Shown: positions 1,727 through 62,720, numbered from the stretch's first letter. The stretch is DNA of 64,000 bases from Synergistales bacterium (GCA_963666205.1 OY762654.1:1376001-1440000), one strand, 5' to 3'. The notes: a model not told the origin generated them from the letters alone. Translations and numbers: made by a program.

Positions 1727-1766
1727 CATTGCATACATACGGTTAAAATCAAGGTCTGACCCCATT
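1727..1766. repeat. TCAAGGTCTGACCCC core site, copy R1
   Basis: CATTGCATACATACGGTTAAAATCAAGGTCTGACCCCATT, identical over 40 bp to the copy ending at 26038. Confidence 0.95.
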
Positions 1767-1801
1767 GTTGATTGTGTCAATAACGGGCAAGACCGCCAAT
1801 C

Positions 1802-4800
1802 TCAATCCTCCGTAACAGGGATACACACATCAACCGAGTGTTCTTTATGGTCATCAACAAGAGGAATGCCCTTATCGTGTTGTTCTATCCCATCAACTCT
1901 CACTCGCATCTCACCATTACCAGGGGGTGTTTGCAGAACGGAGATGTGGTAAACCGTCTCTCGATATCGGTAGTACATTGTGAACCCTTTCCAATCCGGA
2001 GGGAGGCACGGCGTAAAAAACAGCTTATCCACTTCAAGCCTGAGTCCCAGGAGTGATTCCAGGATCAGCCGATACATCCAGGCGGCCGAGCCCGTGTACC
2101 ATGTCCAGCCGCCACGGCCGGTATGGGGAGGCAAGGCATAAACATCGGCTGCAATAACGTACGGTTCCACCTTGTAGGTGGCCGTTTCCTGGGGGGATCT
2201 TGCGTGGTTAACCGGGTTGATCATGGTAAAGAGTTCCCAGGCACGCCGATTGTCCCCCAAGCGAGCGAAGGCCATTGCCGCCCAGATGGCCGCATGCGTA
2301 TACTGTCCTCCGTTTTCTCTCACGCCGGGAACATATCCTTTGATGTAGCCTGGATTTACCGTCGACTTGTCGAAGGGTGGGTCCAGAAGTTGGATCAGCC
2401 CATGCTCGCGGCGAACAAGGCGCTTATCGACCGCTTCCATGGCCATACAGGAACGCTCATGATCTCCCGCACCCGAAAGGACAGACCAGCTCTGCGCAAT
2501 CGAATCAATCTGACATTCAGGGTTATCTGACGATCCAAGGGGCGATCCTTCATCGAAATAGGCGCGGAGGTACCACGCGCCGTCCCAGCCATGCCTCTTA
2601 ATGTTGCCGCGCAACTGCTCGGCCTCCCTTATGCAACGCCCGGCGAAAGCCACGTCACCATGTATGCGGGCAATCTCAGCGAAACGCATTAGCACTTCAA
2701 ATAAGAAAAACCCCAACCATACGCTCTCACCTTTGCCGTGTTCACCCACCCGGTTCATGCTATCGTTCCAGTCACCGGAGCCGATGAGCGGCAGGCCGTG
2801 TTCCCCGAATCTGAGGCCGTTCAATATTGCCCTGACACAGTGATCGTAAAGACTCGCCATCTCTTCAGAGTGTCCGGGTAGATCGTAATAAGAATCTTCA
2901 TCCGGGTTCACACTGCGACCCTGGAGGAAGTGGACAGGCTCATCCAGCACACCGGTATCCCCGGTGGCGAGAACATAGCGGCACGTCGCGACCGACAGCC
3001 AAAGGTAGTCGTCCGAACAGTGAGTACGCACACCTCGACCCGTTGGAGGATGCCACCAATGTTGAACATCTCCTTCCGTGAATTGGCGGCTCGCGCACAG
3101 TAGAATCTGCTCGCGCACGAGATGCGGCCTGGCATGAACAAGAGCCATCACGTCCTGCAGCTGATCCCGGAAACCGAAAGCCCCCCCCGACTGGTAGGTT
3201 GCGCTGCGCGCCCAAAGGCGACACGTAAGAGTCTGGTAAATCAGCCAGCCGTTTGCCAGAACGTTAAGGGATGGATCAGGTGTTTCCACATTGATAGCGC
3301 CGAGGGTATGTTTCCAGTGCTGCCACACCAGGTCAAGGGCGCTGTGCGCAGTGGTTGGTCCTCGAAAATCATTGATCAGTCTTCTGGCATCGTCTGCATC
3401 CCGCCCTATTCCCAGCCTGAAGACGATTTCGCGCTCCTGCCCGGATTCCAGATCGAAGCTGATCTGGATAGCAGCGCAGGGATCCCTCCCTGCTCCCACC
3501 TTGCCAGAAAGACACGTGCGATTCATGGCGGCAGGAGCGTGCAGCGTACCGTTGCGTCCCAGAAATTCTCTCCGATCACCAGTTACAGTGCGACTGGTGT
3601 CGTCCACGTCGAAGAAAGCAGTTCGGTCATGGAATTCCATATTGTAGGGGTTGCGAGCGAAGAGTGCGCCGCTATTCGGATCAATTTCAGTGATCACGTG
3701 CATGGCCGATTTCGACCGCAGGTCGCCAAGCACCCATTCCACATATCCAGTAGCGGAGAGCCGGCGGGATTGACCAGAATCGTTACGCACTTTTAGAACC
3801 GTAAACTTGATCGCTTCATCCATAGCTACATACACCCACAATTCGGAGTGGATACCGTGCTCGGTGTGTTCAAAGACGCTGTAACCGAATCCGTGCCGGG
3901 TGACATATGGCATTTTCCCGCGGCATGGCAGTGGCGTGGGCGACCAGAATTTGCCGAGATCTTCATCACGGAGGTAAAATGCCTCTCCTCTCGAATCGCT
4001 TACAGGATCGTTTCCCCATGGAGTCAGGCGGAACTCATGGGCATTCTCACTCCAGGTGTAGGCTAGGCCGCTCTCTGATATGACAGTCCCGAAGTTCGGG
4101 TTGGCCAGCACATTCACCCAGGGAGCCGGTGTCAGTTGTCCCTGCGCGGTGGTAATAATATACTCGTGTCCGTCATGGGTGAATCCGCCAAGTCCGTTGT
4201 AGAACATCAGATCGGGGCGTGGCAAAGGTGCGACCGCCAGGGGTTCGGAGCGGGGAGTTCGCGTCGGGGTAAGAAGGGGCGCTGTTGTTTCATCAAGACT
4301 CCGTCCATTTATCTGCTCCGCCAGTGTACCCCGGCTGTCACTGATTATTACGCGTGCTACCGTTTGGATAAGGATTCGGTCTTCCTCCGCTATCCGGTCC
4401 TCAGATCTCACAAAAATACCACCGGGTCGATCAGTTATGTTGGCTTCGATGCCTGCCGTAATAAGCCCCATGATCTGGTCGTGGAGGAGTTGCCGATAAC
4501 CTGCATGATCTTCGTTCCAGATCACCAGATCCACAGCTAGTCCCTTTAGACGCCAATAGGCATGGGCCTGCACGAGTTGGCGCACCAGTTCGATATTGGC
4601 CGGATCTCCTATCTTCAGCAGGACAATCGGTAAATCGCCCGAGATGGCGTATCCCCAAAGACCGGATTGGCCCCGGTGGTTCTTTATGAGAACACTCGGG
4701 TCGGCTCGCAGCGAGGCATTGGCATAGATGATCGAACTGGCGAGACGCCCATAGAGTTGCGCATCTGCCTCTGACGCATTAGACTGGCGCAGCAGTACCT

Positions 4801-7800
4801 GACCATGAGTCCAGGCCAGATCAAAGACACGATTCGCGAGTCGACGATCCTGGTACTTTCCCGCCAGTCCTACGGCTGCATCACGTGTTTCACCGATACC
4901 GGTGACCATATCTATGGTTACTGATTCTTCGGGATCCAGGTTTATCCGGCATCGGATGGAAACGATCGGATCAAGCACTGAACCCTCACTGCCCGAGAGT
5001 TCTCCCGTAAAAGAACCATCTCCTCCAATCATCGCTTGTGGATCAGCGACGGTGTTTCCTCGGCCGATAAACTGCATGCGATCGGTTTCGTAGGAAACTG
5101 CTCCTATTTCCGCCCCACGCACAGCCATCAGGTGCATCATCCAGGGCGCCTGTTCGCCTTCGGAGCGAGGCCGACGAGTGCAGAGAATCGCTCGCTGCTG
5201 GTGGATGATCTCGGTCTGCACAAAGAGATTGCTGAATGCCGGATGAAGCGCATCCGGGGCGGGTGGCGCCATAACCACTTCAGCGTAACTGGTAATGTCT
5301 ATCTCTCGCCGCGTCTGCGCGCGGTTGGTTATTTTGACACGGCGCAGTTCGATGTCATCCTCGGGCGAAACAGCTATCTCTGTATATGTATCATAATTGT
5401 GATCACGGCGTCGAAACTCTGCCCGCCCTTCCGAAAAGATCGCTTCATAATTTCCCGATAGGTTAAGCACAGGCTGATATGTAGTTGACCAGAACTCTTT
5501 GCTGGCCACGTCGCGTATGTAACAGAAGGTCCCCCAGTTGTCGCAGGTGCTGTCTTCACGCCAACGGGTGATAGCGAGGTCATTCCAGCGGCTGTAACCG
5601 CCTCCGGCATTGGTTATCATCACGTGGTATCTGCCGTTTGAAAGTAACTGCACTTCAGGGCTCGGTGTGTCGGGACTGTTGAAACAGCGTATCGGCGTCT
5701 CCAAAGCACTGAAAGTCATCGAGTGCTCGGAGAGCTCTGTTGTATGCACATAGAGAGGTGTTGCCTTGGGAATTCGCTCCTGGAGTAACAGCATGGTCGC
5801 CTGGAATAGGGGATCAGACTCGAATCGCTTCTGCATCGGGCGATCCTGAAGCACATGGGACAAAGACAGAAGAGTCATGCCCTGATGATGGGCCATAAAG
5901 GAACGAACCACGGCACTCGATTGACCACGGGGCAGACGGGATGGAGTGTAGTCTATAGCTTCGTAGAAGCCATACCGGGTTTCAAAGCCTTCAGCAGCTA
6001 GTAGCTCAAGATTCAGACACGCCTCATCGGGTGTCACCATCAATGCCAGTGCCGAAGCATAGGGTGCAATCACCAGATCCTCGGCAAGTCCTCGTTTGAG
6101 CCCCAGGCCAGGGACACCAAAGGCGCGATATTGATAGTTTCGATGAACATCTATGGCATTGTAGCCGCTTTCCGAAATGCCCCAAGGCACGTTGCGCTTT
6201 TTCCCATATTCGATCTGGCTGGCCACAGCCACCTTACAGGTCTGGTCAAGCAGCGTGTGTTCGTAAGTCGGCATAACCAGAAGGGGCATCAGGTATTCGA
6301 ACATGGAACCGCTCCACGAAAGCAGTATCGGTTCTCCACCGGCAGTCGTGAGAATCCGTCCCAGGGCAAACCAGCTTTCCTGTGCCAATTCTCCCTGCGC
6401 GATCGCTACAAAAACTGAAAGTCTCGCTTCAGAAGCCAGAAGATCGTAGTAGCTGGAGTCCTTCCGGCCTTCAGCTACGTTGTAGCCGATTGCCAGCAAA
6501 TGTTGTGTTTCATCAAACAGAAAACCGTATTCCATGCGGGCAAGGGTGTCGCATTGCAGGGCAAGCCCTTTTATCGCAGAAATCCTTGTTTTGGCATGCT
6601 GGCTGGCTGTCACGATTAGATCATGTAGTTCTCTGAGGTAAATTTTTTCCTCCATCGTGGAGGCAGGACTGATCCGATGTGCGATCACCGGCAACAGCTT
6701 TTTATCCAGTCCTGCCAGTTCCCGCAATGTCGGGATCTCGTCGAGATTTTGAAAGCCTCCTGGATTATCCTGAGAAGATAAGAGATCTGTCCAGGGTGCA
6801 AGAAGCTTCAGTTCATCGAGGGCGTCCTGGCATTGCCTGGAAAAGGCACGGACCCACCATTCAAATTGGCTCTCGGGGCTGGCATCGGTTGTCTCTATGC
6901 CCGAAACCACAACCGCAACGGACCTTGCCAACTGATCAATGCACAACCGTAACGCCGTGAGCGTGGGAGGGAAAGAATGAGTCGCGGAATCCAGATCCTC
7001 TTCAAGTTGAGCGAACTGGACAGGATTATATATCTCCGGCTTGTTCGCAGCAGTGTCTAAAACGATCCGGAGAGTGTCGCTTAAACTCTCAAAGAACCTC
7101 TTACTCAGGATCTTGTGATCGGGAAGACCGCGCAGACCCGACCTCAATGTCAGCAGATGGCCCGCAAGGTTTCCGCTGTCCACCGACGAAATGTAAAGAG
7201 GCGGCAGGGGTTTCAGAGAACGAGTGTCGTACCAGTTGAAGAAGTGTCCGCGGTGTCGTTCCAGTCCTTCCATGGTGTGAAGTGCCTTTGCTGTACGTTC
7301 TATAAGTTTTCCGGCCAGAATAACGCCAAAGTCGTACGCGGATAAATTTGCCAGCAGCACAAGCCCCATGTTGGTAGGTGAAGTGCGGTGTGCTAACACA
7401 GAAACAGGATACTCCTGGTAGTTATCCGGGGGGAGCCAGTTGTCTTCCGGGCCGATAAAGGTCTCGAAAAATGACCATGTTTTACGGAAGATTTTTCGCA
7501 GGAAGATTATCTGATCCGTTGTCAGTCTTTTTCTGCGACGGGTTATCGGCCGACTGATCCACCAGGCAATAACGGGAGAGGCAAACCAGAGACCTAATAT
7601 CGGGCCTGCCACAACCAAGGTGGCTGACCTGAATGAAGCGATCATTATCACTACTGCAACCACAAGGAGCGGAACAATCCACATGGCTCGATACGAACCG
7701 GCTAGGTCCGTTCGGCCATTGCGATCCGAGGAGTCCGATGGATTCCATTGGAGCAGACCTTGATGTGTGACCAGCGTCCTCCATGCAACGCGAACCATTG

Positions 7801-10600
7801 CATCCAGATTGGAAAATGCTTCGTATGGCAAGCAGACCACTGTGAATACAGCCTGAAAAAAATGACGGCGGGCCGATCTCACTGCGCCGGCAAGGTGCAG
7901 TCCCAGGGTAACATCGGATGGTTTCTTGATCACATTCAAGACCGAGGCCATCAAAGAAGGAATCAGGATAATGCCCATAACCGCCAAAGTCCAAAACCAG
8001 GCTGATGGCAACATGACCCAACTCCATATGGACAGCAGTGTCAATGCCGGGGCCATCAGACTACGCCGCAGGTTATCGAAGATCTTCCAGCGGGACAGCA
8101 TGGAAAGCGGGTTTTTCTGAAGGTGTCCACCAGGACCGGGAATGTATGGCAACAGCCACTGTGCGATCTGCCAATCACCGCGAATCCAACGATGCCGGCG
8201 ACTCACATCCGCGCTGTAGGAAGATGGATATTCCTCGTATAGCTCCACATCGCTCAACAGTCCCGCTCTGGCGTAACAACCTTCCAAAAGATCATGGCTG
8301 AGGATCCGGTTTTCGGGAAAACGCCCGTTAAGTGCCTGCTCAAATGCATCTATCTCATAGATTCCCTTACCTATAAACGAACCTTCACCAAACAGATCCT
8401 GGTAAACATCGGAAACGGCGCGCGTATACGGATCTATACCGAGCTCACTTGCACACATGCGCACATAGTGTGACCGGTTCTCACCAGACAGACTCTCCGC
8501 AACCCGCGGCTGAAGAATGCCGTACCCAGCAACGACACGTTGTTTTTTTTCGTCATAGCAGGGACGATTGAGTGGGTGCGCCATGGCTCCAACAAACTGC
8601 CGCGCCGAATCGCGTGCCAATAGCGTATCTGTATCCAGGGTGATCACGTACTTCACGTCCGATAAGACCGCGGTTTCGCCGACCACAAGTTCGAAGCGAT
8701 CTCTAGCTCCACCGCGCAGAAACCCATTCAGATCCGCTAGCTTGCCGCGTTTTCGCTCGTACCCCATCCATATCCTATCCTGTGGATTCCAGCGGCGGGG
8801 ACGATGAAACAGAAAGAAAGTATCGCCTTCCGGACTCTTGTATTTTTCGTTCAGATCCTGGATCCGTTTTTGGGCCAGGCGCAACAGCGGTTCGTCCCCA
8901 GGAAGAGTAGCTTCCATGGCATCAGAAAAATCTGTGAGCAGAGCAAAGTACAGGTGATCCTCCCGATTTGCCAGGAAGCGGACTTCCATTGCCTTGAACA
9001 GATCCTCGATATTTTGAGTGCCCGTGAGCATCGTCGGAACCACGATCAGCGTTCGTAAATCCTGTGGAATCCCCTTGGAGAAGTCCATTCTCGGGAGGGG
9101 ATGCGGCGGCACCAGCAGCGTTGCCAGCCAATTCACCATACCTACCCCCAGATGACTGGCGCAGAGAAGCGAAAGCAGTCCAACCATCCAGAGTGTCCAG
9201 CCTCTCAACCCGCTGGCATAAGCCTTATCAATGAAACAGCTGGCGACAATAACTGTTATCAGCAGAATGGTGCCGATATACAACTGTAAAGAGAACCGCC
9301 TGCTGAGTTTACTCAGAAGATCAGGAGGCGAAAATCGCACCTCCGCCACTCGTTTAAGTTGTGCCGATCCCTCGTCGATCAGGTAAAACCCGACATGCCC
9401 AGTGCGGTCGCTGCATCCTTTCCGAGCCGCTCCCTCTTGTGCCAGCTTGATTGCCCTGCTCGCTACATCGCTTTCGGATAAGGGACTGCTCTTTGCAATC
9501 TTCTCCACGACGTGGCGATAGCTATCACGGGTAGTAAAATCCATTTTGCCATAAACATCAGCAGGATCTTCTCTCAGGGTCTGCTCGACAACACTCATCT
9601 TTTCGACGAATTCGCGCCAATCCGTCCCGCCGATGAATCTGAGGCTGCCGATGCTGTTGCTGACCGAGATCTGATCAGCGGCTTGTTGCTGGTTCTCCGA
9701 GCGAACCAACTGCTCGATGGTCAGACCAGACTCGGCCAACTGCTGTTCGATCCAGGAAAGCGGCAGGGACAGGGCACCGCCCTGTCCCTGCAGGCGACGC
9801 GTGAGTTCTGCAACAAAGGAACTCACCATTGGCGGGTTCGACCGCGCCATGTCTGCGATAACGAGGATCAGGCTCTTCGGATCCTGTGCAGCAATCTCGA
9901 TCATCTGGTCCGCCCAGAATTCTGCGCGGTTTCTGTTAAGCCTGCCGGCCGCTATCCGGGCGGCAACCCGGCGCAGATTCTCGATCAGTGCCAGACGCAA
10001 CATGATGGGAATGGCCCATAATTCTCCCAATTTCAAAGCAGTCACCTTCTGATAGGCAGCGACAAATCGACTGAGGTTTTCCGGATCAACTCTGCCATCA
10101 CCGTGAGAGATCGTCTCCAGAGCAATGTCATACACCCGCGGGAACCCAGCCGATGGTCCGTTCGACAAGCGAGGAAGTTCCCTGCTGTACCCCTTTGGCA
10201 AATGTCGGGTGGCCGTGCGAATCTGTTCTTCGATCAGATAGAAGTTATCGAGCAGCCATTCTCCGGCCGGTGTTATCCGGCGATCCATGTTGACAGCCTC
10301 TGTCTCCAGGTTATGGACTTTACCCAGGAAAATTTCGTTATCGGCCAGCCGCGCCAGAAGGAGATGCCGCGGGCGTCCAGTCATCAACTTATGCATACCA
10401 GCAAGGGTCTTTCCATGCTGCTCCATCTGGTCTGCGCTGAACAGATCTGATCGAAGGGGCAGTTCCTCACCGACATATTGCTGTTCCAGGTCGCTTCCAC
10501 GGAGGCTCGACCACATACGGGAAAAAGTTTTGCGAACAGTCTTAGCGGTATCCTTCATTATCAATCTCTCCTCTGCCAGATCGGAAACCGTCTCATCCAT
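1802..10600 (-). CDS. ndvB: Cyclic beta-1,2-glucan synthase (Cgs/NdvB/ChvB type: GT84 synthase, TM segments, glycoamylase-like cyclisation domain, C-terminal GH94 phosphorylase)
   Basis: 2932 aa; WMGYERKRGKL, GKGIY, LSHDLLEG, RRHRWIRGDWQ, SWSGSMFEYLMP, WGISES, GGAFGFRDQLQD, GSGDWND, RENGGQYTH. Confidence 0.93.
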   Translation of the reverse strand: MDETVSDLAEERLIMKDTAKTVRKTFSRMWSSLRGSDLEQQYVGEELPLRSDLFSADQMEQHGKTLAGMHKLMTGRPRHLLLARLADNEIFLGKVHNLETEAVNMDRRITPAGEWLLDNFYLIEEQIRTATRHLPKGYSRELPRLSNGPSAGFPRVYDIALETISHGDGRVDPENLSRFVAAYQKVTALKLGELWAIPIMLRLALIENLRRVAARIAAGRLNRNRAEFWADQMIEIAAQDPKSLILVIADMARSNPPMVSSFVAELTRRLQGQGGALSLPLSWIEQQLAESGLTIEQLVRSENQQQAADQISVSNSIGSLRFIGGTDWREFVEKMSVVEQTLREDPADVYGKMDFTTRDSYRHVVEKIAKSSPLSESDVASRAIKLAQEGAARKGCSDRTGHVGFYLIDEGSAQLKRVAEVRFSPPDLLSKLSRRFSLQLYIGTILLITVIVASCFIDKAYASGLRGWTLWMVGLLSLLCASHLGVGMVNWLATLLVPPHPLPRMDFSKGIPQDLRTLIVVPTMLTGTQNIEDLFKAMEVRFLANREDHLYFALLTDFSDAMEATLPGDEPLLRLAQKRIQDLNEKYKSPEGDTFFLFHRPRRWNPQDRIWMGYERKRGKLADLNGFLRGGARDRFELVVGETAVLSDVKYVITLDTDTLLARDSARQFVGAMAHPLNRPCYDEKKQRVVAGYGILQPRVAESLSGENRSHYVRMCASELGIDPYTRAVSDVYQDLFGEGSFIGKGIYEIDAFEQALNGRFPENRILSHDLLEGCYARAGLLSDVELYEEYPSSYSADVSRRHRWIRGDWQIAQWLLPYIPGPGGHLQKNPLSMLSRWKIFDNLRRSLMAPALTLLSIWSWVMLPSAWFWTLAVMGIILIPSLMASVLNVIKKPSDVTLGLHLAGAVRSARRHFFQAVFTVVCLPYEAFSNLDAMVRVAWRTLVTHQGLLQWNPSDSSDRNGRTDLAGSYRAMWIVPLLVVAVVIMIASFRSATLVVAGPILGLWFASPVIAWWISRPITRRRKRLTTDQIIFLRKIFRKTWSFFETFIGPEDNWLPPDNYQEYPVSVLAHRTSPTNMGLVLLANLSAYDFGVILAGKLIERTAKALHTMEGLERHRGHFFNWYDTRSLKPLPPLYISSVDSGNLAGHLLTLRSGLRGLPDHKILSKRFFESLSDTLRIVLDTAANKPEIYNPVQFAQLEEDLDSATHSFPPTLTALRLCIDQLARSVAVVVSGIETTDASPESQFEWWVRAFSRQCQDALDELKLLAPWTDLLSSQDNPGGFQNLDEIPTLRELAGLDKKLLPVIAHRISPASTMEEKIYLRELHDLIVTASQHAKTRISAIKGLALQCDTLARMEYGFLFDETQHLLAIGYNVAEGRKDSSYYDLLASEARLSVFVAIAQGELAQESWFALGRILTTAGGEPILLSWSGSMFEYLMPLLVMPTYEHTLLDQTCKVAVASQIEYGKKRNVPWGISESGYNAIDVHRNYQYRAFGVPGLGLKRGLAEDLVIAPYASALALMVTPDEACLNLELLAAEGFETRYGFYEAIDYTPSRLPRGQSSAVVRSFMAHHQGMTLLSLSHVLQDRPMQKRFESDPLFQATMLLLQERIPKATPLYVHTTELSEHSMTFSALETPIRCFNSPDTPSPEVQLLSNGRYHVMITNAGGGYSRWNDLAITRWREDSTCDNWGTFCYIRDVASKEFWSTTYQPVLNLSGNYEAIFSEGRAEFRRRDHNYDTYTEIAVSPEDDIELRRVKITNRAQTRREIDITSYAEVVMAPPAPDALHPAFSNLFVQTEIIHQQRAILCTRRPRSEGEQAPWMMHLMAVRGAEIGAVSYETDRMQFIGRGNTVADPQAMIGGDGSFTGELSGSEGSVLDPIVSIRCRINLDPEESVTIDMVTGIGETRDAAVGLAGKYQDRRLANRVFDLAWTHGQVLLRQSNASEADAQLYGRLASSIIYANASLRADPSVLIKNHRGQSGLWGYAISGDLPIVLLKIGDPANIELVRQLVQAHAYWRLKGLAVDLVIWNEDHAGYRQLLHDQIMGLITAGIEANITDRPGGIFVRSEDRIAEEDRILIQTVARVIISDSRGTLAEQINGRSLDETTAPLLTPTRTPRSEPLAVAPLPRPDLMFYNGLGGFTHDGHEYIITTAQGQLTPAPWVNVLANPNFGTVISESGLAYTWSENAHEFRLTPWGNDPVSDSRGEAFYLRDEDLGKFWSPTPLPCRGKMPYVTRHGFGYSVFEHTEHGIHSELWVYVAMDEAIKFTVLKVRNDSGQSRRLSATGYVEWVLGDLRSKSAMHVITEIDPNSGALFARNPYNMEFHDRTAFFDVDDTSRTVTGDRREFLGRNGTLHAPAAMNRTCLSGKVGAGRDPCAAIQISFDLESGQEREIVFRLGIGRDADDARRLINDFRGPTTAHSALDLVWQHWKHTLGAINVETPDPSLNVLANGWLIYQTLTCRLWARSATYQSGGAFGFRDQLQDVMALVHARPHLVREQILLCASRQFTEGDVQHWWHPPTGRGVRTHCSDDYLWLSVATCRYVLATGDTGVLDEPVHFLQGRSVNPDEDSYYDLPGHSEEMASLYDHCVRAILNGLRFGEHGLPLIGSGDWNDSMNRVGEHGKGESVWLGFFLFEVLMRFAEIARIHGDVAFAGRCIREAEQLRGNIKRHGWDGAWYLRAYFDEGSPLGSSDNPECQIDSIAQSWSVLSGAGDHERSCMAMEAVDKRLVRREHGLIQLLDPPFDKSTVNPGYIKGYVPGVRENGGQYTHAAIWAAMAFARLGDNRRAWELFTMINPVNHARSPQETATYKVEPYVIAADVYALPPHTGRGGWTWYTGSAAWMYRLILESLLGLRLEVDKLFFTPCLPPDWKGFTMYYRYRETVYHISVLQTPPGNGEMRVRVDGIEQHDKGIPLVDDHKEHSVDVCIPVTED

Positions 10601-23242: not shown

Positions 23243-25822
23243 ACGAAATTCCGGAATAACAATTTACATGAGTATGGCAAAATATTCAGGAACATATTAC
23301 CTGTTATAGGTCTTTCACTTTTTGTATCTGCCTTGTGGATACTTCATAAGGAGCTTAAGGATTACCATGTCCACGATATAATATATCAACTGACACAGAC
23401 CCCTTTAAGATTTATTCTTCTGGCATTTTTATTTACCTTGTTCGATTATTTTACTCTTACCCTGTACGATTTCCTTGCCCTTAGAAGCATAGAGCATCCA
23501 TTGGATTACGGCAATATCTGTTCGGTGTCATTCATTTCCTTTGCTTTTAGCCATAATATAGGATTTTCCCCGGTTTCAGGTGGATCTGTCCGTTACAGAA
23601 TATATACCTCACTGGGTCTTTTACCTGGTGAAATCGCGAGGGTAATAGCCTTTACCACCGGGACTTTCTGGTTAGGATACAGTATTGTTGGAGGGATTGC
23701 TTTTTTGTTTGACCCTCTTGTTCTGCCAGAACAATTTCATATACCCTTTGGTTCCCTCCATTTTCTTGGTATCCTGCTTTTGATCCCCGGGATTTTTTAT
23801 ATAGGATTTTCCCTTCTGAAACATGACACTCTCAAGATCAATGGAATAAAGATGAAACTTTATAGTCCTTCTATACTCCTTCCGCAGATTCTTATTGCTT
23901 TTTCTGACTGGATTCTTGCCGCATCTGTACTGTTTATATTGATACGGGATATTTCTGATATATCGTTTTTTTATTTTTCAGGTATTTTCCTGCTGGCTCA
24001 GCTCTCAGGAGTTTTGAGCCAGGTACCGGGGGGATTAGGTGTCTTTGAAACGGTTATAGTATTGCTTATGCCTCCATCCATTGACAGGCACTCTCTTTTG
24101 GGCACCCTTCTTGTTTACAGAGGTATTTATTACCTTATACCCTTTTTTACGGCAATTATATGCCTGGGATTCCGGGAAACAGGTTTGAACAAAAAGTTGT
24201 TAGTTGCTGGAGGAAAGAGGGTAGCTTTTGTTCTGTTTCCCTTGATACCCTACCTGTTTTCGCTGGGCACTTTTATAGCTGGCGCAATTCTTCTAGCAAC
24301 AGGTTCCCTTCCTGTACCTATAGGCTATCTGCAGTTTCTGGAGAAATATATTCCTCTTACATTAGTTGAGGTATCTCATTTTATGGGTGCTCTCACAGGT
24401 ATGGCTTTGATTTTTCTATCCGGGGGGCTGCGGAGAAAGATAGATACAGCCTGGTTACTTACGTGTGTTCTGCTTACATCGGGAATTATTTTTTCTATTC
24501 TGAGAGGTTCCCATTACGTTGAGGTCGGGATACTTGTGGCCATGCTCATTCCACTTATCCCGGCAAAAAAGCATTTTACCCGCAAAGGCATGCTGTTAGG
24601 GAACGTAATGAGCATTCAATGGCTGGCAAGCGTTTTTCTTGTTTTGATTACCACATCATGGTTAGGATTTTTTTCCTACCGTCATGTAAATTATTCATCA
24701 CAGCTATGGTGGCAGTTTACCCTTGAAAATAATGCGCCAAGATTCCTGAGAGCCCAGGCTGGAATTGTTATTTTCCTCAGTTTAATAGCCCTGAAACAGT
24801 TATTCACACATGCAAAAGCACAAGAGACCATGGGACAGATCGACCGATCCAGGGTCGAAAGCATAGTATCCCTTTCACCAAGAAGTGATGCTTCCCTCGC
24901 CCTTCTGGGAGATAAAAAGTTCTTGTTCAGCAATTCCGGAAATTCCATGATCATGTATGGTGTCCGTGGTAAAAGATGGATCTCCATGGGTGATCCTCTC
25001 GGGGTGAAAGAAGAATGGCCGGGTTTACTATGGGATTTTCGGGAACTTGCCGATAAATATGGTGGAAATGCTATCTTCTACCAGGTATCTCCCACACAGA
25101 TCGTGAATTATGTTGATATGGGATTGACCCTTGTCAAACTTGGAGAAGTGGGCAAAGTCCCTCTCTATGATTTCAATCTTGAAGGAAGTTCACACAAGAA
25201 GTTCAGGTGGACTCTCAGGAAAGCGGAAAAAGAAGGTTTAAGTTTCAGGGTACTTATGCCTCCAGAAACGAATATCATAATGGATAATATCGAAGAGATC
25301 TCCGATCTCTGGCTGGCTGATAAAAACACCAGGGAGAAAGGATTCTCTCTCGGATCTTTTAACAGGGAATACCTGGCCAGATTTCCTGTCGGGATAGTAG
25401 AGCTGAATTCCTCCATAGTGGCTTTCTCAAACTTCTGGGTCAGTTATGAGAAGGAGGAAATATCCCCTGATCTCATGCGTTATAAATCTGGCATTCCCTC
25501 AGAAGTAATGGATTATCTTTTTTTAAAGTCCATGATATGGGGAAAAGAACAGGGATTCAGATATTTTAATCTTGGAATGTCTCCACTTTCCGGACTTGAA
25601 GGACATAAAATGGCGCCCTTATGGCAAAAGTTCGGGAATTTCCTGTACCGTCATGGAGAATATTTTTATAATTTTCAGGGATTAAGAATGTACAAAGATA
25701 AATTTTCGCCCCAATGGGAAGCACGCTACCTCGCATTTCCTGGAAAATTATCTCTGCCAGGAACATTGGCAGATGTGTCGGCACTTATTGCCGGGGGAAT
25801 ACCTGGCATCTTCGGGAAATAA
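23243..25822 (+). CDS. mprF: Bifunctional aminoacyl(lysyl)-phosphatidylglycerol flippase/synthase (start uncertain; first canonical start is TTG 23333)
   Basis: SGGSVRYR.Y, PGGLGVFE, LALLGDK, GDPLG, EKGFSLG, DLMR, FNLGMSPL, YNFQGLR.YK.KF.P.WE.RYL. Confidence 0.9.
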   Translation, partial: TKFRNNNLHEYGKIFRNILPVIGLSLFVSALWILHKELKDYHVHDIIYQLTQTPLRFILLAFLFTLFDYFTLTLYDFLALRSIEHPLDYGNICSVSFISFAFSHNIGFSPVSGGSVRYRIYTSLGLLPGEIARVIAFTTGTFWLGYSIVGGIAFLFDPLVLPEQFHIPFGSLHFLGILLLIPGIFYIGFSLLKHDTLKINGIKMKLYSPSILLPQILIAFSDWILAASVLFILIRDISDISFFYFSGIFLLAQLSGVLSQVPGGLGVFETVIVLLMPPSIDRHSLLGTLLVYRGIYYLIPFFTAIICLGFRETGLNKKLLVAGGKRVAFVLFPLIPYLFSLGTFIAGAILLATGSLPVPIGYLQFLEKYIPLTLVEVSHFMGALTGMALIFLSGGLRRKIDTAWLLTCVLLTSGIIFSILRGSHYVEVGILVAMLIPLIPAKKHFTRKGMLLGNVMSIQWLASVFLVLITTSWLGFFSYRHVNYSSQLWWQFTLENNAPRFLRAQAGIVIFLSLIALKQLFTHAKAQETMGQIDRSRVESIVSLSPRSDASLALLGDKKFLFSNSGNSMIMYGVRGKRWISMGDPLGVKEEWPGLLWDFRELADKYGGNAIFYQVSPTQIVNYVDMGLTLVKLGEVGKVPLYDFNLEGSSHKKFRWTLRKAEKEGLSFRVLMPPETNIIMDNIEEISDLWLADKNTREKGFSLGSFNREYLARFPVGIVELNSSIVAFSNFWVSYEKEEISPDLMRYKSGIPSEVMDYLFLKSMIWGKEQGFRYFNLGMSPLSGLEGHKMAPLWQKFGNFLYRHGEYFYNFQGLRMYKDKFSPQWEARYLAFPGKLSLPGTLADVSALIAGGIPGIFGK

Positions 25823-25845: not shown

Positions 25846-26042
25846 CCAGGTACTGCCCCATTAAAAAGGAACGCATTCGGGTCTGCGGAATTCCAACCAT
25901 GTTGGCGGCAATTATGACCCGGTTTTTCTGAGAATATACCAGATGTATATCGAAAAGATGTGAATTGGAAATTAGAAAACCACATTACTCAAAGGCAGCA
26001 TTGCATACATACGGTTAAAATCAAGGTCTGACCCCATTATTG
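25846..26042. repeat. 197-bp direct repeat, copy 1 (gene-remnant 'left arm' + core site R2)
   Basis: Colinear with 33803-33999, about 9 substitutions by eye and no indels. Confidence 0.95.
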
Positions 26043-27360: not shown

Positions 27361-27549
27361 TGCATACATACGGTTAAAATCAAGGTCTGACCCCATTATT
27401 GGTAATGTCAGGAAAAAACGGAGGGGCATCGGGGCCGGATTGTTCTGGCGAACCAGATAACGCCCCCCGGAGCCATACCTCCATCTCTTCTTTATCGTAG
27501 TCCTTTTCAGGTTTTCAAGGGCTGCTATTATCTGCGATTTTAATAGCAG
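27361..27549. repeat. Core site R3 (41 bp identical to 26002-26042) + 'right arm' ending in a hairpin
   Basis: TGCATACATACGGTTAAAATCAAGGTCTGACCCCATTATTG; GAACCAGATAAC, GAGCCATACCTCC; hairpin CTGCTATTA/TAATAGCAG 27522-27549. Confidence 0.92.
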
Positions 27550-33615: not shown

Positions 33616-33925
33616 TTGAACGATAAAACCGCATTTGCAAGGCCTGATTCCAGTTTCCGATACATGTCTTTTTTATGGCTGGAAGTTGCGGACGAACCAT
33701 TAGAGGATAGAGAAAGGACCTACCCTGGGGGAAATAGTATCGCCCTTTTAAGTAACTGGAGTAAAAAGGAAAAAGCTGATGAACCTTCAGGCAGCTGGAT
33801 TGCCAGGTACTGCCTTATTAAAAAGGAACGCATTCGGGCCTGTGGAATTCCAACCATGTTGGCGGCAATTATGACCCGGTTTTTCTGAGAATATACCAGA
33901 TGTATATCGAAAAGATGCGAATTGG
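33616..33925 (+). pseudogene. Frameshifted remnant of a conserved hypothetical (possibly nuclease-like) gene
   Basis: MSFLWLEVADEP...GNSIALLSNW...PSGSWIARY in one frame, continuing as GLWNSNHVGGNYDPVFL in another; the 3' part is duplicated at ~25880-25965. Confidence 0.5.
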
Positions 33926-34260
33926 AAATCAGAAAACTACATTACTCAAAGACAGCATTGAATACATACGGTTAAAATCAAGGTCTGACCCCATTATTGG
34001 GAATATCAAGAAAAAAAGACGGAGAAATTCCCCCCTCAATGGGGCATTTCAGAGCCGAGTCACCACAGCCATCAGGCAACTCCACTGGAAATTCCCCCCC
34101 TCAATGGATAGAAACAACCGCCTCATTAACTGGCATTTCAAGAGCCGAGTTATTGGTATTGAACCAGATAACGGACCCCATGAGCCATACCTCCGTCTTA
34201 TATTTTCTTATGCCTTTTTCAGGGCTTCGGGGGCTGCTATTATCTAAGATCTTAATAGTA
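33803..34260. repeat. 197-bp repeat copy 2 + core site R4 + right arm ('empty' version of locus 25846-27549)
   Basis: Left arm matches 25846-26042; right arm shares GAACCAGATAAC, GAGCCATACCTCC and GGGCTGCTATTATCT with 27402-27549. Confidence 0.92.
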
Positions 34261-58741: not shown

Positions 58742-59268
58742 AATTACCTCCTGCAGCAGAACACTAGATTATCTATTTTCTATATAACATAATACTAACT
58801 TTATGTAAATAAATTTTGACTATTTATTATATTTTGTTTGGAATAAGCTCTATTTAGTTTTACATAGTGCAAGTCAAAAGGTCATTTGACCGGTTTCAAT
58901 TGAGGTAGTTAGCAATTTGACACAATAAATTTCCAATAGTGATGCAAATTATCATATTTTATGTAAAAAGATGAAATAAGCCCTGATATTCTTATTCAGG
59001 GACCTTCAGGTGGTCAGAATATGAGAATTTCCTAAAAAAATATTTCCTGCAGAAAAACCAGATCTTTCATAAGGATAAAGGTCGTCTCCCTGGCATGTTT
59101 TCATACCATGGATAATCCCCGCAGTTTTCAAGAATCATAAATTGAAGATCTGAGAAGCTGATTAGCAGGCCTTCATGATTTCCCTGCCAGGATTACCATT
59201 GAAGAATATGCTATAATTTTTTCTGATGAATCTTTACCTATTTTATCAATCAGAGAGGTGGAAGAGCA

Positions 59269-60081
59269 ATGGAGAGATTTACAAGAAAACATTATTTTGG
59301 CAGGCTTCTGATACTGAGCCTCCTCATTATGGTCATAGCCATTGCTTCAGCGGCTCCGACCGTTGGAACAGAAACATCAAGGCTGGATACCATCATGGAA
59401 ATGGGTGTCCTCAAGGTAGGTACCACGGGGGACTATAAGCCCTTCACATATTTCGATAAGGAAAAAGGCGAATTCGAGGGTATAGACATTGATATGGCCA
59501 AGTCCCTTGCGGCAGCCCTTGGGGTGAAACTGGAACTGGTTCAGACCACATGGAAAAATATCGTCACAGACCTGGTTGAAGGAAAATACGACGTGGCCAT
59601 GGGAGGAATATCCAAAAGGCTTTCAAGGCAGACCAGCGTTTTCTTCACCATTCCCTATCTCGAAACTGGAAAGGCACCCATAACCCTGAAAGAGAATGCG
59701 GAAAAATTCCAGACCCTCGACCAGATCGACCAGGAAGGCGTCAGGGTAATTGTTAACCCCGGAGGAACCAACGAGAGCTTCGCCAGGGCAAACCTTAAAA
59801 AAGCCACCATAGTGGTTCATGAGGATAACGTAACCATTTTCGACCAGATCATCCAGGGCAAGGCAGATCTTATGATGACAGATGCTGTGGAAACACTGGT
59901 ACAGGAAAAACTGCACCCCGAACTCAAGGCCGTAAACCCGGACAAACCATTCACATTCACCGAATTCGGCTACATGCTTCCCCGGGGAGACTCCGTGTTC
60001 AAGGAATGGGTCGACCTGTGGCTCCATACCGCTCTGAAAACCGGAGAATACCAGAAATATTTTGACAGCCGGGTAAGATAG
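59269..60081 (+). CDS. Amino-acid SBP family 3 / cyclohexadienyl dehydratase (PheC)-like periplasmic protein
   Basis: VGTTGDYKPF, GGIS, NPGGTNE, MTDAVE. Confidence 0.8.
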   Translation: MERFTRKHYFGRLLILSLLIMVIAIASAAPTVGTETSRLDTIMEMGVLKVGTTGDYKPFTYFDKEKGEFEGIDIDMAKSLAAALGVKLELVQTTWKNIVTDLVEGKYDVAMGGISKRLSRQTSVFFTIPYLETGKAPITLKENAEKFQTLDQIDQEGVRVIVNPGGTNESFARANLKKATIVVHEDNVTIFDQIIQGKADLMMTDAVETLVQEKLHPELKAVNPDKPFTFTEFGYMLPRGDSVFKEWVDLWLHTALKTGEYQKYFDSRVR

Positions 60082-61208: not shown

Positions 61209-62444
61209 ATGGTTCAGCTTGACGGATACAACTTTGACCTTGAAAGATTCATGTCCAGAGAGGATTTCGACAGGATAAAGGAGTTCGCTTCCGATAAGCA
61301 GACTCCCTTTCTGGTGTTGGACCTGGAAAAGGTGGGAGAAAAATACGATGCACTCACTACTGCCTTTCCATTTTCCAAGGTTTATTATGCCATCAAGGCC
61401 AATCCCCACGACGAAGTTCTTAAACTCCTTGCCGCACGGGGTTCCTGCTTTGACTTCGCCTCTCCTTATGAACTGGACCAGATAATGGGTCTTGGAGTAA
61501 CTCCTGACAGGCTGAGTTACGGAAACACCATCAAGAAGGCCAAAGACATCGCCTACGCCTACAGCAGAGGTGTAAGGCTTTTTGCAACAGACTCCGAGAA
61601 CGATCTCAGAAAAATCGCTGAAAATGCACCCGGATCAAAGGTGTTCTTTAGGCTTCTGACTGACGGTAGCGGCGCAGACTGGCCTCTTTCAAGAAAGTTC
61701 GGAGCCCACCAGGACGTTATAATAAGCCTCATCGATCTGGCTTCAAAGCTTGATGTGGAACCCTATGGAGTATCCTTCCATGTAGGATCACAGCAGAGAG
61801 ATATCGGCCAGTGGGACAACGCCATTTCTTCATGCTGGTATATTTTCGACTGGGCCAGAGAAATGGGAATCGAGCTCAAGATGATAAACATGGGGGGAGG
61901 ATTCCCTGCCATGTACCAGGATCCCAATCTCGACTTCGAGGTATACCGTACGGAGATAACCCGATTCCTCAAGGACGACTTCGGAGATAACTTCCCTGAA
62001 ATAATAATTGAGCCCGGAAGATCCATGGTCGGTGATGCTGGAGTGCTTGTCTCTGAAGTGGTCCTCATATCCAAAAAAGCCGAATATAACCAGTATGTAT
62101 GGGTCTACCTGGATGCCGGAAAATTCGGAGGGCTCATAGAAACCCTGGATGAGGCCATCAAATATCCCATATTCGTGGACAAGGAAGGCCAGGCTCTTGA
62201 GGCCATTCTTGCAGGACCGACCTGCGACAGCATGGATATACTTTATGAAAACTTCAAATACACCGTTCCCGACACCATGGAAGAGGGAGACAGGATGTTT
62301 TTCTTTACCACAGGAGCTTATACCACGAGCTACTGTTCTATAAACTTCAACGGATTTCCTCCGCTGAAGGCTTATATTCTTCCGCAAAGGACAGAAAGTG
62401 AGAAGAAAAAGGAAGTCTATCAGACTGGAAATCTTTTTGAATAA
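61209..62444 (+). CDS. Type III PLP-dependent ornithine/lysine decarboxylase
   Basis: YAIKAN, FDFAS, SRKFG, SFHVGSQ, NMGGGFP, EPGR, GPTCDSMD, GAYT. Confidence 0.92.
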   Translation: MVQLDGYNFDLERFMSREDFDRIKEFASDKQTPFLVLDLEKVGEKYDALTTAFPFSKVYYAIKANPHDEVLKLLAARGSCFDFASPYELDQIMGLGVTPDRLSYGNTIKKAKDIAYAYSRGVRLFATDSENDLRKIAENAPGSKVFFRLLTDGSGADWPLSRKFGAHQDVIISLIDLASKLDVEPYGVSFHVGSQQRDIGQWDNAISSCWYIFDWAREMGIELKMINMGGGFPAMYQDPNLDFEVYRTEITRFLKDDFGDNFPEIIIEPGRSMVGDAGVLVSEVVLISKKAEYNQYVWVYLDAGKFGGLIETLDEAIKYPIFVDKEGQALEAILAGPTCDSMDILYENFKYTVPDTMEEGDRMFFFTTGAYTTSYCSINFNGFPPLKAYILPQRTESEKKKEVYQTGNLFE

Positions 62445-62655
62445 CCAGTCTTACCGCGAAGTCGCAAAGGACTCAAATCCGCCAAAAACCACTGAATAAA
62501 ACCGGGGACGGGCGGACTTTCAGCACGGGTCCGGAAGGTAGATAAATAGGCCAGTATGCCGGCTGTGCAAAATGGTAGACAAGATTTTGCATGAGAAAAC
62601 ATTGGACCTGTTTGATGGGCTAAAGCCCATCAAACAGGTTTTGACTGTGATTTTT

Positions 62656-62720
62656 AATCCAAAGTCTAAAATCCGCAATCCAAAATCGGCATGTGGCAAA
62701 TCAAGACCTGACCCCCCAAT
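62656..62720. repeat. Heptamer-like tandem (AATCCAA) followed by core site R5
   Basis: AATCCAAAGTCTAAAATCCGCAATCCAAAATC then AAATCAAGACCTGACCCC at 62698-62715. Confidence 0.8.

What the first reader, a model, noticed from the sequence alone, without database searches (positions are those of the whole stretch)
1727..62720. Dispersed GGGGTCAG(A/G)(C/T)CTTGA site at a near-fixed distance from the 3' ends of unrelated accessory genes: candidate cassette-capture system
Seen: near-identical copies of ATACATACGGTTAAAATCAAGGTCTGACCCCATT at ~1733, ~26005, ~27364 and ~33962, a variant at 62698 (AAATCAAGACCTGACCCC), and degenerate copies at 17847, 11055, 21813 and 41622. Three unrelated genes (8.8-kb glucan synthase, rhuM, MBL hydrolase) all end on the minus strand 38, 32 and 32 nt from the G-run of this site, in the same orientation. 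The photolyase and H+-ATPase also point into a copy, separated by the shared right arm. The plus-strand abiE pair is followed by GGGGTCA about 115 nt downstream. No backbone gene ends with this geometry. Inference: an integron-like but non-attC system inserting single genes at a defined site with fixed polarity. From memory, unverified here, similar motifs flank IS200/RAYT-like Y1 HUH transposase genes, so such an enzyme acting in trans is my candidate.
Basis: partly seen in the sequence, partly recalled or inferred. Interest (0 to 1): 0.88.

Follow-up and report, generated by a model that had tools for sequence, protein, structure and literature searches.

The report
Transposase-end repeats scattered through a variable island
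The repeated motif is the end sequence of a little-studied "TIRtron" mobile element (a tyrosine HUH transposase gene framed by inverted repeats) that lies 180 kb away; its loose copies sit between genes of a fast-changing defence and accessory island, sometimes exactly where gene blocks have been swapped, but a gene-capture system is not shown.

Summary
The motif is real. Four identical 34-nt copies and one relative lie in the window. The genome holds 13 identical and 3 decayed copies.

It is the terminal inverted repeat of a TIRtron. An inverted pair 180 kb to the right frames a Y1/HUH transposase with a C-terminal HTH. This is the TIRYT class (GGGGWSAS ends) of Di Nocera 2013, Quentin 2018 subclass 2.1. 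Homologues in three other phyla or classes carry the same GGGGTCAGGTCTTG ends. The scan has met TIRtrons before on other DNA.

The fixed distance to gene 3' ends is not general: 8 of 16 copies here and 5 of 16 in the sister species. No tyrosine recombinase lies near any copy, and the repeat has no attC-like fold.

Three things remain of interest:
- Copies are far better conserved than their flanks (93% against 60-70%).
- Three of 9 copy edges lie within 3 nt of synteny breaks.
- Two "repeat-cargo-repeat versus single repeat" contrasts exist.

Recombination at the repeats is likely; the mechanism is open. This is a new member of a known kind.

The parts
1730..1766 (+). Solo TIR copy 'c1377' (written ATAC...CCCCATT on +; the canonical GGGG-first reading is on the minus strand)
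   Evidence: Exact 17-mer; nhmmer E 4.2e-16; no inverted partner within 238 nt
26002..26038 (+). Solo TIR copy 'c1402', 32 nt from the rhuM stop codon
   Evidence: Homology to the sister species starts 2 nt after it
27361..27397 (+). Solo TIR copy 'c1403', upstream of rhuM. With c1402 it forms a 41-nt perfect direct repeat around a 1.3-kb segment
   Evidence: Homology to the sister species and to a metagenomic relative stops at its left edge
33959..33995 (+). Solo TIR copy 'c1409'. It carries the same left and right arms as c1402/c1403 but has no cargo between them
62698..62717 (+). Variant TIR of subfamily B (AAATCAAGACCTGACCCCCC)
   Evidence: 2 mismatches. One search finds the same core upstream of the second TIRYT gene and at 3 further sites. 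One search gives score 14, above the 99th percentile
25847..26001 (+). Left arm of c1402: remnant of the 3' end of a gene-X-like (PADLOC PDC-M57B) gene
   Evidence: 95% identical to the c1409 arm, 78% to gene X
33616..33958 (+). Left arm of c1409: longer remnant of a gene-X paralogue (residues 151-206, 59% identity)
27398..27520 (-). Right arm 'Rt': long imperfect hairpin with a T-run (terminator-like on the minus strand), then a decayed second repeat-like stretch
   Evidence: alignment; fold -21.9 kcal/mol, z -1.95
33996..34216 (-). Right arm Rt' of c1409, with a terminator-like site (34035-34021, minus strand) between the ATPase gene and the repeat
1802..10600 (-). GH94-type cyclic glucan synthase-like gene (2932 aa). 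It ends 38 nt from c1377
   Evidence: Found 94% identical next to a repeat in metagenome contig L038
26068..27123 (-). rhuM (PADLOC PDC-S05), lying between c1402 and c1403
62750..63643 (-). Metallo-beta-lactamase-fold gene next to the variant copy. The block 62524-66263 is absent from the sister species
23333..25822 (+). MprF-like lysyl-phosphatidylglycerol synthase to the left of c1402. Absent from the sister species and from metagenomic relative X1
34282..36804 (-). P-type cation ATPase ending 289 nt to the right of c1409. Absent from the sister species at this place

Best explanation
IDENTITY. The motif (R) is the terminal inverted repeat of a TIRtron. The TIRtron is a 1.9-kb unit at genome 1555574-1557463, 180 kb to the right of the window. 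There two inverted R copies, with GGGG outward, frame a TIRYT-type Y1/HUH tyrosine transposase with a C-terminal HTH, a PC4-like 71-aa ORF and a 180-aa ORF of unknown family. The window's copies are solo TIRs of this family.

ORIGIN OF THE SOLO COPIES (inferred). The TIRYT enzyme acting in trans on single-stranded DNA spread them as short gene-less units. Inverted doublets of 66-131 nt exist in other genera, and one 99-nt insertion exists in the sister species. Many copies then lost their partner end.

PLACEMENT. Copies lie only in intergenic DNA, often just past a stop codon or terminator. Their orientation tends to follow the replication and gene direction, which produces the apparent fixed polarity in the window.

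WHAT THE COPIES DO. The repeat is kept nearly unchanged while its flanks diverge, so it is either bound and used or homogenised between copies. Identical 34-60-nt copies in one orientation then serve as portable recombination points in a hypervariable defence and accessory island. This yields repeat-cargo-repeat arrangements and block swaps. I think ordinary homologous or illegitimate recombination between copies and with incoming DNA is the more likely agent. TIRYT-catalysed exchange is the less likely agent.

SHOWN: identity of the repeat with the TIRtron ends, its distribution, its conservation, and its coincidence with breakpoints. INFERRED: the mode of spread and the agent of recombination.
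For: TIRTRON ANATOMY.
- L001 4574-6463 runs AATGGGGTCAGACC... to ...GGTCTGACCCCATT around three minus-strand ORFs.
- Pfam gives Y1_Tnp E 3.6e-13, HTH_28 E 1.4e-6, and PC4 E 8.7e-12.
- NCBIfam REP_Tyr_transpos scores 78.2 bits against a cut-off of 80.
- HUH (H60, H62) and Y119 are invariant in 16 aligned homologues. A profile of that alignment aligns them to the HMH and the DYIYINPV stretch of E. coli TnpA-REP, 4er8, at E 0.0011.
- Both TIRs hold an inward TTGATT-16-TATTAT promoter-like site. One ends 8 nt before the transposase ATG.
- The same unit is present in the sister species.

LINK TO THE KNOWN CLASS.
- Homologues at 46-49% identity in Syntrophorhabdus, a gammaproteobacterium and Acidovorax are each framed by inverted repeats with a core of (G)GGTCAGGTCTTG or GGTGTCAGGTCTTG.
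- Literature passages: TIRtron/TIRYT with GGGGWSAS ends, and TIR families occurring as singles, dimers or groups. Subclass 2.1 carries HTH_23, HTH_28 or DnaA_C tails.

FAMILY SIZE.
- 13 full and 3 decayed copies; the next best profile hit has E 0.065.
- AAGRYCTGACCCC occurs 19 times against 0.24 expected.
- The motif is found in 10 of 61 genomes of the order and 4 of 27 genera. The reversed control pattern gives 0.

MOBILITY AS SHORT UNITS.
- Five doublets in three other genomes fold as hairpins of -35 to -55 kcal/mol.
- A 99-nt insert in G001 is absent from G000 between two adjacent genes.

CONSERVATION. Across 10 orthologous pairs, the 37-nt repeat unit (R37) is 344/370 (93%) identical. The left flanks are 1401/2000 identical and the right flanks 1198/2000.

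ORIENTATION. The origin lies near 1.70 Mb. The left replichore holds 8 + and 2 - copies of family A; the right holds 2 + and 4 -.

JUNCTIONS.
- Repeat edges lie 1, 2 and 3 nt from synteny block ends in 3 of 9 copies. A random intergenic position does so in 1.9% of draws (within 5 nt).
- Five of 6 intergenic gaps holding a repeat contain a block end, against 40 of 124 gaps overall; Fisher p 0.013.
- Metagenome contig L038 reads X-R-GH94, where G000 reads X-R-[4.6 kb, 3 genes]-R-GH94. Identity jumps from 70% to 94% at R.
- Within G000, L-R-rhuM-R-Rt stands beside L-R-Rt'.

SETTING. The island holds candidate defence genes: AbiE, RhuM (PDC-S05), PDC-M57B and McrBC.
Against: - No transposition, cleavage or binding has been observed for any TIRYT. 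The two papers I read passages of report none, and only those two papers in the library name the class.
- Solo copies here have no detectable partner end within 238 nt; 13 of 13 score within the null. The 99-nt insert in G001 has only a weak left end and folds poorly, at -6.2 kcal/mol. Spread as doublets is therefore inferred from other genera.
- The replichore bias is weak. Leaving out the TIRtron's own pair it is 7+/1- against 2+/4-, one-sided p about 0.06 by my hand count. The window's copies are partly duplicates of one another.
- The breakpoint statistics come from two variable regions of one species pair, and those copies are also not independent.
- Perfect conservation of solo copies fits a site used by an enzyme as well as it fits passive homogenisation. 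It therefore does not favour passive recombination over the cassette reading.
Confidence: 0.75

Rival explanations
1. R is the recombination site of a strand-specific Y1 enzyme. Two R copies in direct orientation on one strand are cut by TIRYT acting in trans. 'Cargo plus one R' leaves as a single-stranded circle and re-enters at another R. This builds same-orientation arrays and shuffles defence and accessory blocks, as a non-integron cassette system.
For: - All five family-A copies from 1373088 to 1409976, and the variant, share one orientation. The sister species has runs of 4 + and 3 - copies.
- There are two R-cargo-R versus single-R contrasts.
- The order of the 'Rt' and 'rhuM' units is swapped between G000 and G001.
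- The flank following R at one site in G001 follows a different, truncated R in G000.
- Homology breaks lie at repeat edges.
- From established knowledge of IS608-type Y1 transposases: they act on two like-oriented ends of one strand and use circular single-stranded intermediates.
- The catalytic motifs are intact.
Against: - The crossover point is not fixed. It lies at the ATAC edge at c1403, 9 nt past CCCC at c2099, and inside R at G000 2105978.
- R has no hairpin of the kind Y1 enzymes are known to read: MFE -0.7 and -0.8 kcal/mol, with 185 and 191 of 200 shuffles folding at least as well.
- Most insertions and deletions in the window do not touch a copy. Examples are 19803-21997 (abiE), 37635-40573 and 50787-60041.
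- The blocks hold several genes on both strands.
- The gene-end geometry is not general.
Confidence: 0.15
2. Domesticated TIRYT-TIR system. The copies are no longer mobile. They are kept as binding sites for the HTH-bearing protein, or as terminator-adjacent elements that serve the host. Their link with breakpoints is only a by-product of lying in variable DNA.
For: - R is 93% conserved against 60-70% for its flanks, at orthologous sites of two species.
- There is one gene copy per TIR family, as reported for RAYTs in Bertels 2017 (passages seen).
- Copies lie just past terminator-like hairpins.
- Doublets in other genera carry an internal terminator-like hairpin.
Against: - Presence and absence differ between the two species. 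The 99-nt insert is one case. Copies c1377, c1403, c1409, c2092 and c2135 have no counterpart in G001, and G001 C8:306127, 310068 and 339956 have none in G000.
- The identical 25-mer occurs in a genome of another family, G044.
- Three G000 copies are decaying.
Confidence: 0.2
3. Integron-like array run by a tyrosine recombinase, with R playing the part of attC.
For: Only the same-orientation array and the nearness of some copies to gene 3' ends.
Against: - Of the six Phage_integrase matches in the genome, the nearest to any copy are at 0.198 and 2.526 Mb. All copies lie between 1.05 and 2.14 Mb.
- R has no attC-like imperfect palindrome.
- The blocks are not promoterless single ORFs.
- Rfam finds nothing in the window.
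Confidence: 0.01

Closest known systems
TIRtron / TIRYT (Di Nocera, De Gregorio & Rocco 2013, PMC3733652); TnpA-Y1 subclass 2.1 (Quentin et al. 2018, PMC6006769)
   Same: A RAYT-like Y1/HUH gene with a C-terminal HTH, framed by non-palindromic inverted repeats that start GGGGWSAS (here GGGGTCAG). The ends also occur as a moderately abundant dispersed family of singles and groups.
   Different: - Here the unit carries two further ORFs, one PC4-like and one of unknown family.
- In this genus the dispersed copies are almost all solo.
- They are clustered in one orientation in variable islands.
- They coincide with gene-block junctions. I found no mention of this in the passages read. The figures and supplements of both papers were not seen.
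REPtron / REPIN-RAYT systems (Nunvar 2010; Bertels & Rainey 2011; Ton-Hoang 2012, the last recalled)
   Same: A single-copy Y1 gene framed by its cognate short repeat, which is dispersed between genes. Doublets form long hairpins. Inheritance is vertical, with repeats conserved.
   Different: R is not a palindromic GTAG-headed hairpin. The protein is twice as long and scores just under the NCBIfam RAYT cut-off. There are tens of copies, not hundreds.
IS200/IS605 (IS608, ISDra2)
   Same: Y1/HUH chemistry, no target duplication seen, and a hint of replication-strand bias.
   Different: Those elements have subterminal hairpins and no terminal inverted repeats. Their TnpA is about 130-150 aa without an HTH tail (recalled).
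Integron cassette arrays (IntI, attI, attC)
   Same: Repeats of one orientation between unrelated accessory genes, some close to gene 3' ends.
   Different: No IntI gene, no attC fold, blocks of several genes on both strands, and variable junction points.
IS91 / ISCR and Helitron-type one-ended HUH capture (recalled)
   Same: A constant end with a variable adjoining segment. Here remnants of gene X travel with R at three sites.
   Different: Those use Y2 or Rep-helicase enzymes and ori/ter ends. No such gene lies near the copies. This was not tested beyond the Y1 and integrase searches.

Membership tests
TIRtron / TIRYT | Y1/HUH transposase fold with HUH motif and catalytic tyrosine | tested here: met
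   Pfam Y1_Tnp E 3.6e-13. H60, H62 and Y119 are invariant in 16 sequences. They align to TnpA-REP 4er8 (E 0.0011).
TIRtron / TIRYT | Gene framed by terminal inverted repeats, not hairpin REPs, with a GGGGWSAS head | tested here: met
   L001 4574-6463 has 34-45-nt arms that begin GGGGTCAG. R alone does not fold.
TIRtron / TIRYT | C-terminal HTH tail (HTH_23, HTH_28 or Bac_DnaA_C) of subclass 2.1 | tested here: met
   HTH_28 E 1.4e-6 at residues 245-283. Placement in the subclass 2.1 tree was not tested.
TIRtron / TIRYT | The TIR is also a dispersed repeat family (single, dimer or grouped) | tested here: met
   13 + 3 copies in G000 and 16 in G001. Dimers occur in three other genomes.
TIRtron / TIRYT | The enzyme binds or cuts its TIR | not testable with these tools
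   No biochemical data in the passages read.
REPtron / RAYT-REP | The repeat is a short imperfect palindrome (hairpin) with a GTAG or similar head | tested here: not met
   MFE -0.7 and -0.8 kcal/mol, z +1.2 and +1.4. There is no GTAG head (sequence).
REPtron / RAYT-REP | The protein reaches the NCBIfam REP_Tyr_transpos equivalog cut-off | tested here: not met
   78.2 bits against a cut-off of 80.
Integron | An IntI tyrosine recombinase with attI next to the array | tested here: not met
   Six PF00589 matches, none between 0.2 and 2.5 Mb; the copies lie at 1.05-2.14 Mb.
Integron | An attC imperfect palindrome at the 3' end of each single-ORF cassette | tested here: not met
   No fold. Blocks of 1.3-24 kb with several genes. 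A 3'-end neighbour in only 8 of 16 and 5 of 16 copies.
MITE (gene-less TIR doublet) | Two inverted ends around a short non-coding core | tested here: inconclusive
   Met in G018, G027 and G042. In this genome 13 of 13 solo copies lack a partner. One 99-nt insert in G001 has a weak left end.
IS200/IS605 | Subterminal hairpins, no TIRs, a short TnpA | tested here: not met
   TIRs are present. The protein is 283 aa with an HTH.

The most novel reading that the evidence does not exclude
Solo TIRs of a TIRYT are working recombination sites. The Y1 enzyme, acting in trans on one DNA strand, excises 'cargo plus one repeat' between like-oriented copies and re-inserts it at another copy. TIRtrons would then run a non-integron cassette exchange that shuffles defence and accessory gene blocks. 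This would give a function to the largest and so far function-less RAYT-like subclass.
Probability: 0.15. Interest if true: 0.85.

Novelty: new member of a known kind. Interest (0 to 1): 0.4.

Why it matters
TIRYTs (subclass 2.1) are the largest RAYT-like subclass. Quentin 2018 finds them in 14.9% of strains (passage). Only two papers in the searched library name the class, and no activity is known.

This genome pair gives three concrete, testable observations:
- Solo ends are conserved across species far above their flanks.
- Their orientation follows the replichore.
- Their edges coincide with gene-block exchanges in an island rich in defence genes.

If the enzyme proves to act at these sites, it would be a second, integron-independent way of swapping accessory genes. 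If not, the case shows how short transposase-end repeats become portable homology that speeds up island turnover.

Tried and rejected
- Rfam at gathering thresholds: 0 matches in the window. tRNA and tmRNA: 0.
- G001 contig C8 as a syntenic partner of the window: only the repeats match. The true partner is C14.
- Inverted or direct partner ends next to solo copies: none above the null, 13 of 13.
- Tyrosine recombinase near the copies: none.
- Single-sequence search of solved structures with the transposase: 0 hits. The profile search gave one, 4er8.
- Gene X and the 180-aa ORF in Pfam at E up to 5: nothing usable.
- Gene X as a constant partner of R beyond the genus: found in 3 of 61 genomes, and the third (G009) has no R.
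- Target-site duplication at the TIRtron, at the doublets and at the 99-nt insert: none seen by eye.
- Public runs. Contigs of the source-strain runs X15 and X16 simply break at the repeats and show no skipping joints. Contigs cannot show rare excision, so this says nothing either way.
- A full reconstruction of the order of events among G000, G001 and metagenomic relative X1 at the rhuM locus was attempted and then abandoned as under-determined.
- The literal search for GGGGTCAGGTCTTG in papers found nothing.

Full report
1. THE OBSERVATION

The 17-mer AATCAAGGTCTGACCCC occurs exactly at window 1747, 26019, 27378 and 33976, and with two mismatches at 62699. All five are on the + strand. Shuffles give 0.32 matches on average, and none of 100 reaches five.

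The window is bases 1376001-1440000 of a single 2,948,783-bp contig with 44.5% G+C. The whole genome holds 13 exact copies of the 17-mer.

A profile built from these copies finds the 13 at E of 3.4e-14 or better. It finds three decayed copies at E 7e-10, 1.3e-8 and 2.9e-6, and then nothing better than E 0.065.

The invariant unit is 34 nt, ATACATACGGTTAAAATCAAGGTCTGACCCCATT.

The 95th and 99th percentiles for random 100-nt pieces of the window are 10 and 12. I reject those four copies.

The 62699 variant scores 14. It belongs to a second subfamily, CAAGACCTGACCCC, described in section 2.

The distances of 38, 32 and 32-34 nt to the stops of the GH94, rhuM and MBL genes are correct. The gene to the left of copy 26019 is MprF-like, not an ATPase or a photolyase.

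2. WHAT THE MOTIF IS

At genome 1555575 (-) and 1557442 (+) two copies stand inverted with GGGG outward. They enclose 1.9 kb holding three minus-strand ORFs:
- A 283-aa protein with Pfam Y1_Tnp (E 3.6e-13) and HTH_28.
- A 71-aa PC4-like protein.
- A 180-aa protein without a family.

NCBIfam's REP-associated tyrosine transposase model scores 78.2 bits against a cut-off of 80.

The HUH histidines and the tyrosine are invariant among 16 homologues. In a profile search they align with those of E. coli TnpA-REP, 4er8.

The family is very large: 7997 of the 8000 scored candidates match.

Three homologues at 46-49% identity, from Syntrophorhabdus, a gammaproteobacterium and Acidovorax, are each framed by inverted repeats with the core GGTCAGGTCTTG.

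Passages of two papers describe exactly this design:
- Di Nocera et al. 2013 named TIRYT genes and TIRtrons. Their ends share GGGGWSAS and form dispersed families of singles, dimers and groups.
- Quentin et al. 2018 place most TIRYTs in their subclass 2.1, which carries HTH_23, HTH_28 or DnaA_C tails.

GGGGTCAG fits that consensus. Only these two papers in the library use the names.

The scan's own notes list several TIRtrons on other genomes. I reached the assignment before reading those notes.

A second TIRYT gene lies at genome 1642328-1643143. It has a subfamily-B end just upstream and no clear end downstream.

3. DISTRIBUTION AND FORM

The motif, allowing up to 3 mismatches in 25 nt, is found in 10 of 61 genomes of the order and in 4 of 27 genera. 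The reversed control pattern finds none.

The sister species G001 has 16 copies and the same TIRtron. The tool's title for its contig names an Acetomicrobium MAG.

In three genomes of another genus the ends occur as inverted doublets of 66-131 nt. These fold into long hairpins of -35 to -55 kcal/mol, some with an internal terminator-like stem.

In this genome the copies are truly solo: 13 of 13 have no partner above the null within 238 nt. R by itself has no structure on either strand.

One clean polymorphism shows a short unit coming or going. G001 has 99 nt, with a weak inverted end and a perfect R, between a stop codon and the next ribosome-binding site. G000 has none there.

4. THE 'FIXED GEOMETRY'

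I used my own rough gene calls (greedy longest ORFs of at least 70 aa).

On the CCCC side, the neighbour is a gene's 3' end in 8 of 16 family-A copies of G000, or 9 of 17 with the variant. The gaps run from 13 to 639 nt, measured from the ends of the profile hits. In G001 the figure is 5 of 16. About half is what any intergenic site would give.

Short gaps of 18-41 nt from the G-run do recur at five sites. One of these is beside a gene conserved in both species.

The origin of replication is near 1.70 Mb by GC skew and gene strand. All copies lie between 1.05 and 2.14 Mb. Family-A orientation is 8+/2- on the left replichore and 2+/4- on the right.

Most genes follow the replication direction. 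The copies tend to do the same. That is enough to explain the shared polarity in the window. The bias is weak, and the window's copies are not independent of one another.

5. ARE THE COPIES JUNCTIONS OF GENE GAIN AND LOSS?

The window is syntenic with G001 contig C14, inverted, at 81-95% DNA identity, with many insertions and deletions.

Most of these do not touch a copy. Examples are 19803-21997 (abiE), 37635-40573 (McrBC-like, replaced by 19.5 kb in G001) and 50787-60041.

Some do touch a copy:
- Homology to G001 starts 2 nt after c1402.
- It stops 1 nt into c1403.
- In the second repeat-rich region it stops 3 nt after c2099.

Over both regions, 3 of 9 copy edges lie within 3 nt of a block end. 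A random intergenic position lies within 5 nt of one in only 1.9% of draws. Five of 6 gaps holding a repeat contain a block end, against 40 of 124 gaps overall; Fisher p 0.013.

There are two repeat-cargo-repeat contrasts.
(a) Within G000, c1409 has the left arm (a remnant of gene X) and the right arm (hairpin Rt) directly around one R. At c1402/c1403 the same arms, 95% and 93% identical, enclose R-rhuM-R with 41-nt perfect direct repeats.
(b) Metagenome contig L038 reads gene X-R-GH94. G000 reads gene X-R-[carnitine acyltransferase-like, one further gene, PALP enzyme; 4.6 kb]-R-GH94. Identity to G000 jumps from 70% to the left of R to 94% to the right of it.

In G001 the rhuM unit stands after, not before, the Rt hairpin. 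It is preceded only by decayed repeat-like stretches.

A metagenomic relative (coded run X1) keeps 27521-33986 at about 97% identity. It lacks the MprF and ATPase genes. It has a breakpoint at 27351, the left edge of c1403.

The flank that follows R at G001 C8:299717 follows a truncated R 6.4 kb away in G000.

6. WHAT THIS DOES AND DOES NOT SHOW

Recombination at or in these repeats has happened repeatedly.

The crossover point is not constant. It falls at the ATAC edge, 9 nt past CCCC, or inside R. The blocks hold several genes. R has no hairpin for a Y1 enzyme to read. The genome is full of other patchwork intergenic repeats (earlier notes). All of this fits homologous or illegitimate recombination between short identical repeats, and with incoming DNA, in a hypervariable island.

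The island carries AbiE, RhuM (PDC-S05), PDC-M57B (gene X) and McrBC-like genes.

It does not exclude catalysis by the TIRYT. Y1 transposases work on like-oriented ends of one strand, and that is the arrangement seen here.

An integron is excluded. The nearest tyrosine recombinase genes are at 0.198 and 2.526 Mb, and there is no attC-like fold.

7. CONSERVATION

At ten orthologous sites of the two species, the 37-nt repeat unit (R37) is 344/370 (93%) identical. The 200-nt flanks are 70% and 60% identical. Five pairs differ at no more than one position. In three pairs the G000 copy is decayed.

The repeat is therefore either used or homogenised. It is not neutral filler.

Both TIRs of the TIRtron contain an inward promoter-like TTGATT-16-TATTAT site directly before the transposase start. 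Binding of the protein to its own ends for autoregulation is a plausible reason for conservation there. This is inference.

8. VERDICT

The cassette-capture model is unproven, and its geometric premise fails.

The element is a new member of the known TIRtron/TIRYT kind, from Synergistota. It has two passenger ORFs and an unusual array of solo ends in one orientation, which mark some gene-block junctions.

LIMITS
- Only one sister species and a few metagenome contigs were available.
- The gene calls are my own rough ORF calls.
- The figures and supplements of the two key papers were not seen.

Noticed in passing
L031 2960-3770 (genome 2457960-2458770): The third Y1_Tnp match of the genome (184-aa frame) is framed by several copies of a true palindromic repeat, GATGCGCTGAAGCGCATCCTAT, in both orientations. 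This looks like a classical REPtron beside the two TIRtrons.
   Followed up: partly
L030 2328-3221 (genome 1642328-1643221): A second TIRYT gene (MSRPLRIEF...) has a subfamily-B end (CCAAGACCTGACCCC) about 65 nt upstream and no recognisable end downstream. The window's 62699 variant and three other sites share this core.
   Followed up: partly
window 11855-17930: A 5.8-kb block holds a GntR/FCD regulator, TAXI and DctM TRAP transporter genes, a DHDPS-family enzyme and a PCC-domain protein. It is absent from the sister species and flanked by a direct duplication of about 70-130 nt of the target (11855-11987 against 17799-17930). No repeat R and no recombinase lie at its ends.
   Followed up: partly
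L002 6320-7033 (window -3680..-2967) and window 19976-21697, 26068-27123, 37661-40546: Gene X, just left of the window, matches the PADLOC candidate defence protein PDC-M57B (E 9e-73). Together with AbiEi/AbiEii, RhuM (PDC-S05) and a McrBC-like pair, the left 40 kb of the window looks like a defence island mixed with transporter operons.
   Followed up: partly
L001 4681-5506: The TIRtron of this genus carries two passenger ORFs between the transposase and the left end: a 71-aa PC4-like (single-stranded-DNA-binding fold) protein and a 180-aa protein with no family. Homologous units in three other taxa hold the transposase alone (870-960 nt between the arms).
   Followed up: partly
genome 2109570 and 2122591 (minus strand): Two copies of a third GGGG-type repeat, TTTTGTTGTGCAAAACCGYACRCGCAAGGCCTGACCCCG, with no transposase gene identified next to them.
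   Followed up: no
G001 C8:299950-300010 and 306480-306590; G000 flanks of copies 1055470 and 1076272: Another dispersed module (…CCTCCGTG…GTGAAAAAGGGTTTTAGGTTTAGCTTAACGG…) recurs next to R copies. Earlier notes of the scan describe mosaic REP/BIME-like repeats in the same genome about 320 kb to the left of the window.
   Followed up: no
whole genome: Cumulative GC skew has its minimum near 1.70 Mb and its maximum near 0.06 Mb, and gene strand bias switches at about 1.7 Mb. The replication origin therefore seems to lie mid-contig, not at base 1. All TIR copies lie within about 0.65 Mb of it.
   Followed up: partly
L042, L041, L040 (G027, G018, G042): The TIR doublets of other genera enclose a GC-rich stem followed by a T-run, that is, a terminator-like hairpin inside the miniature element.
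   Followed up: no
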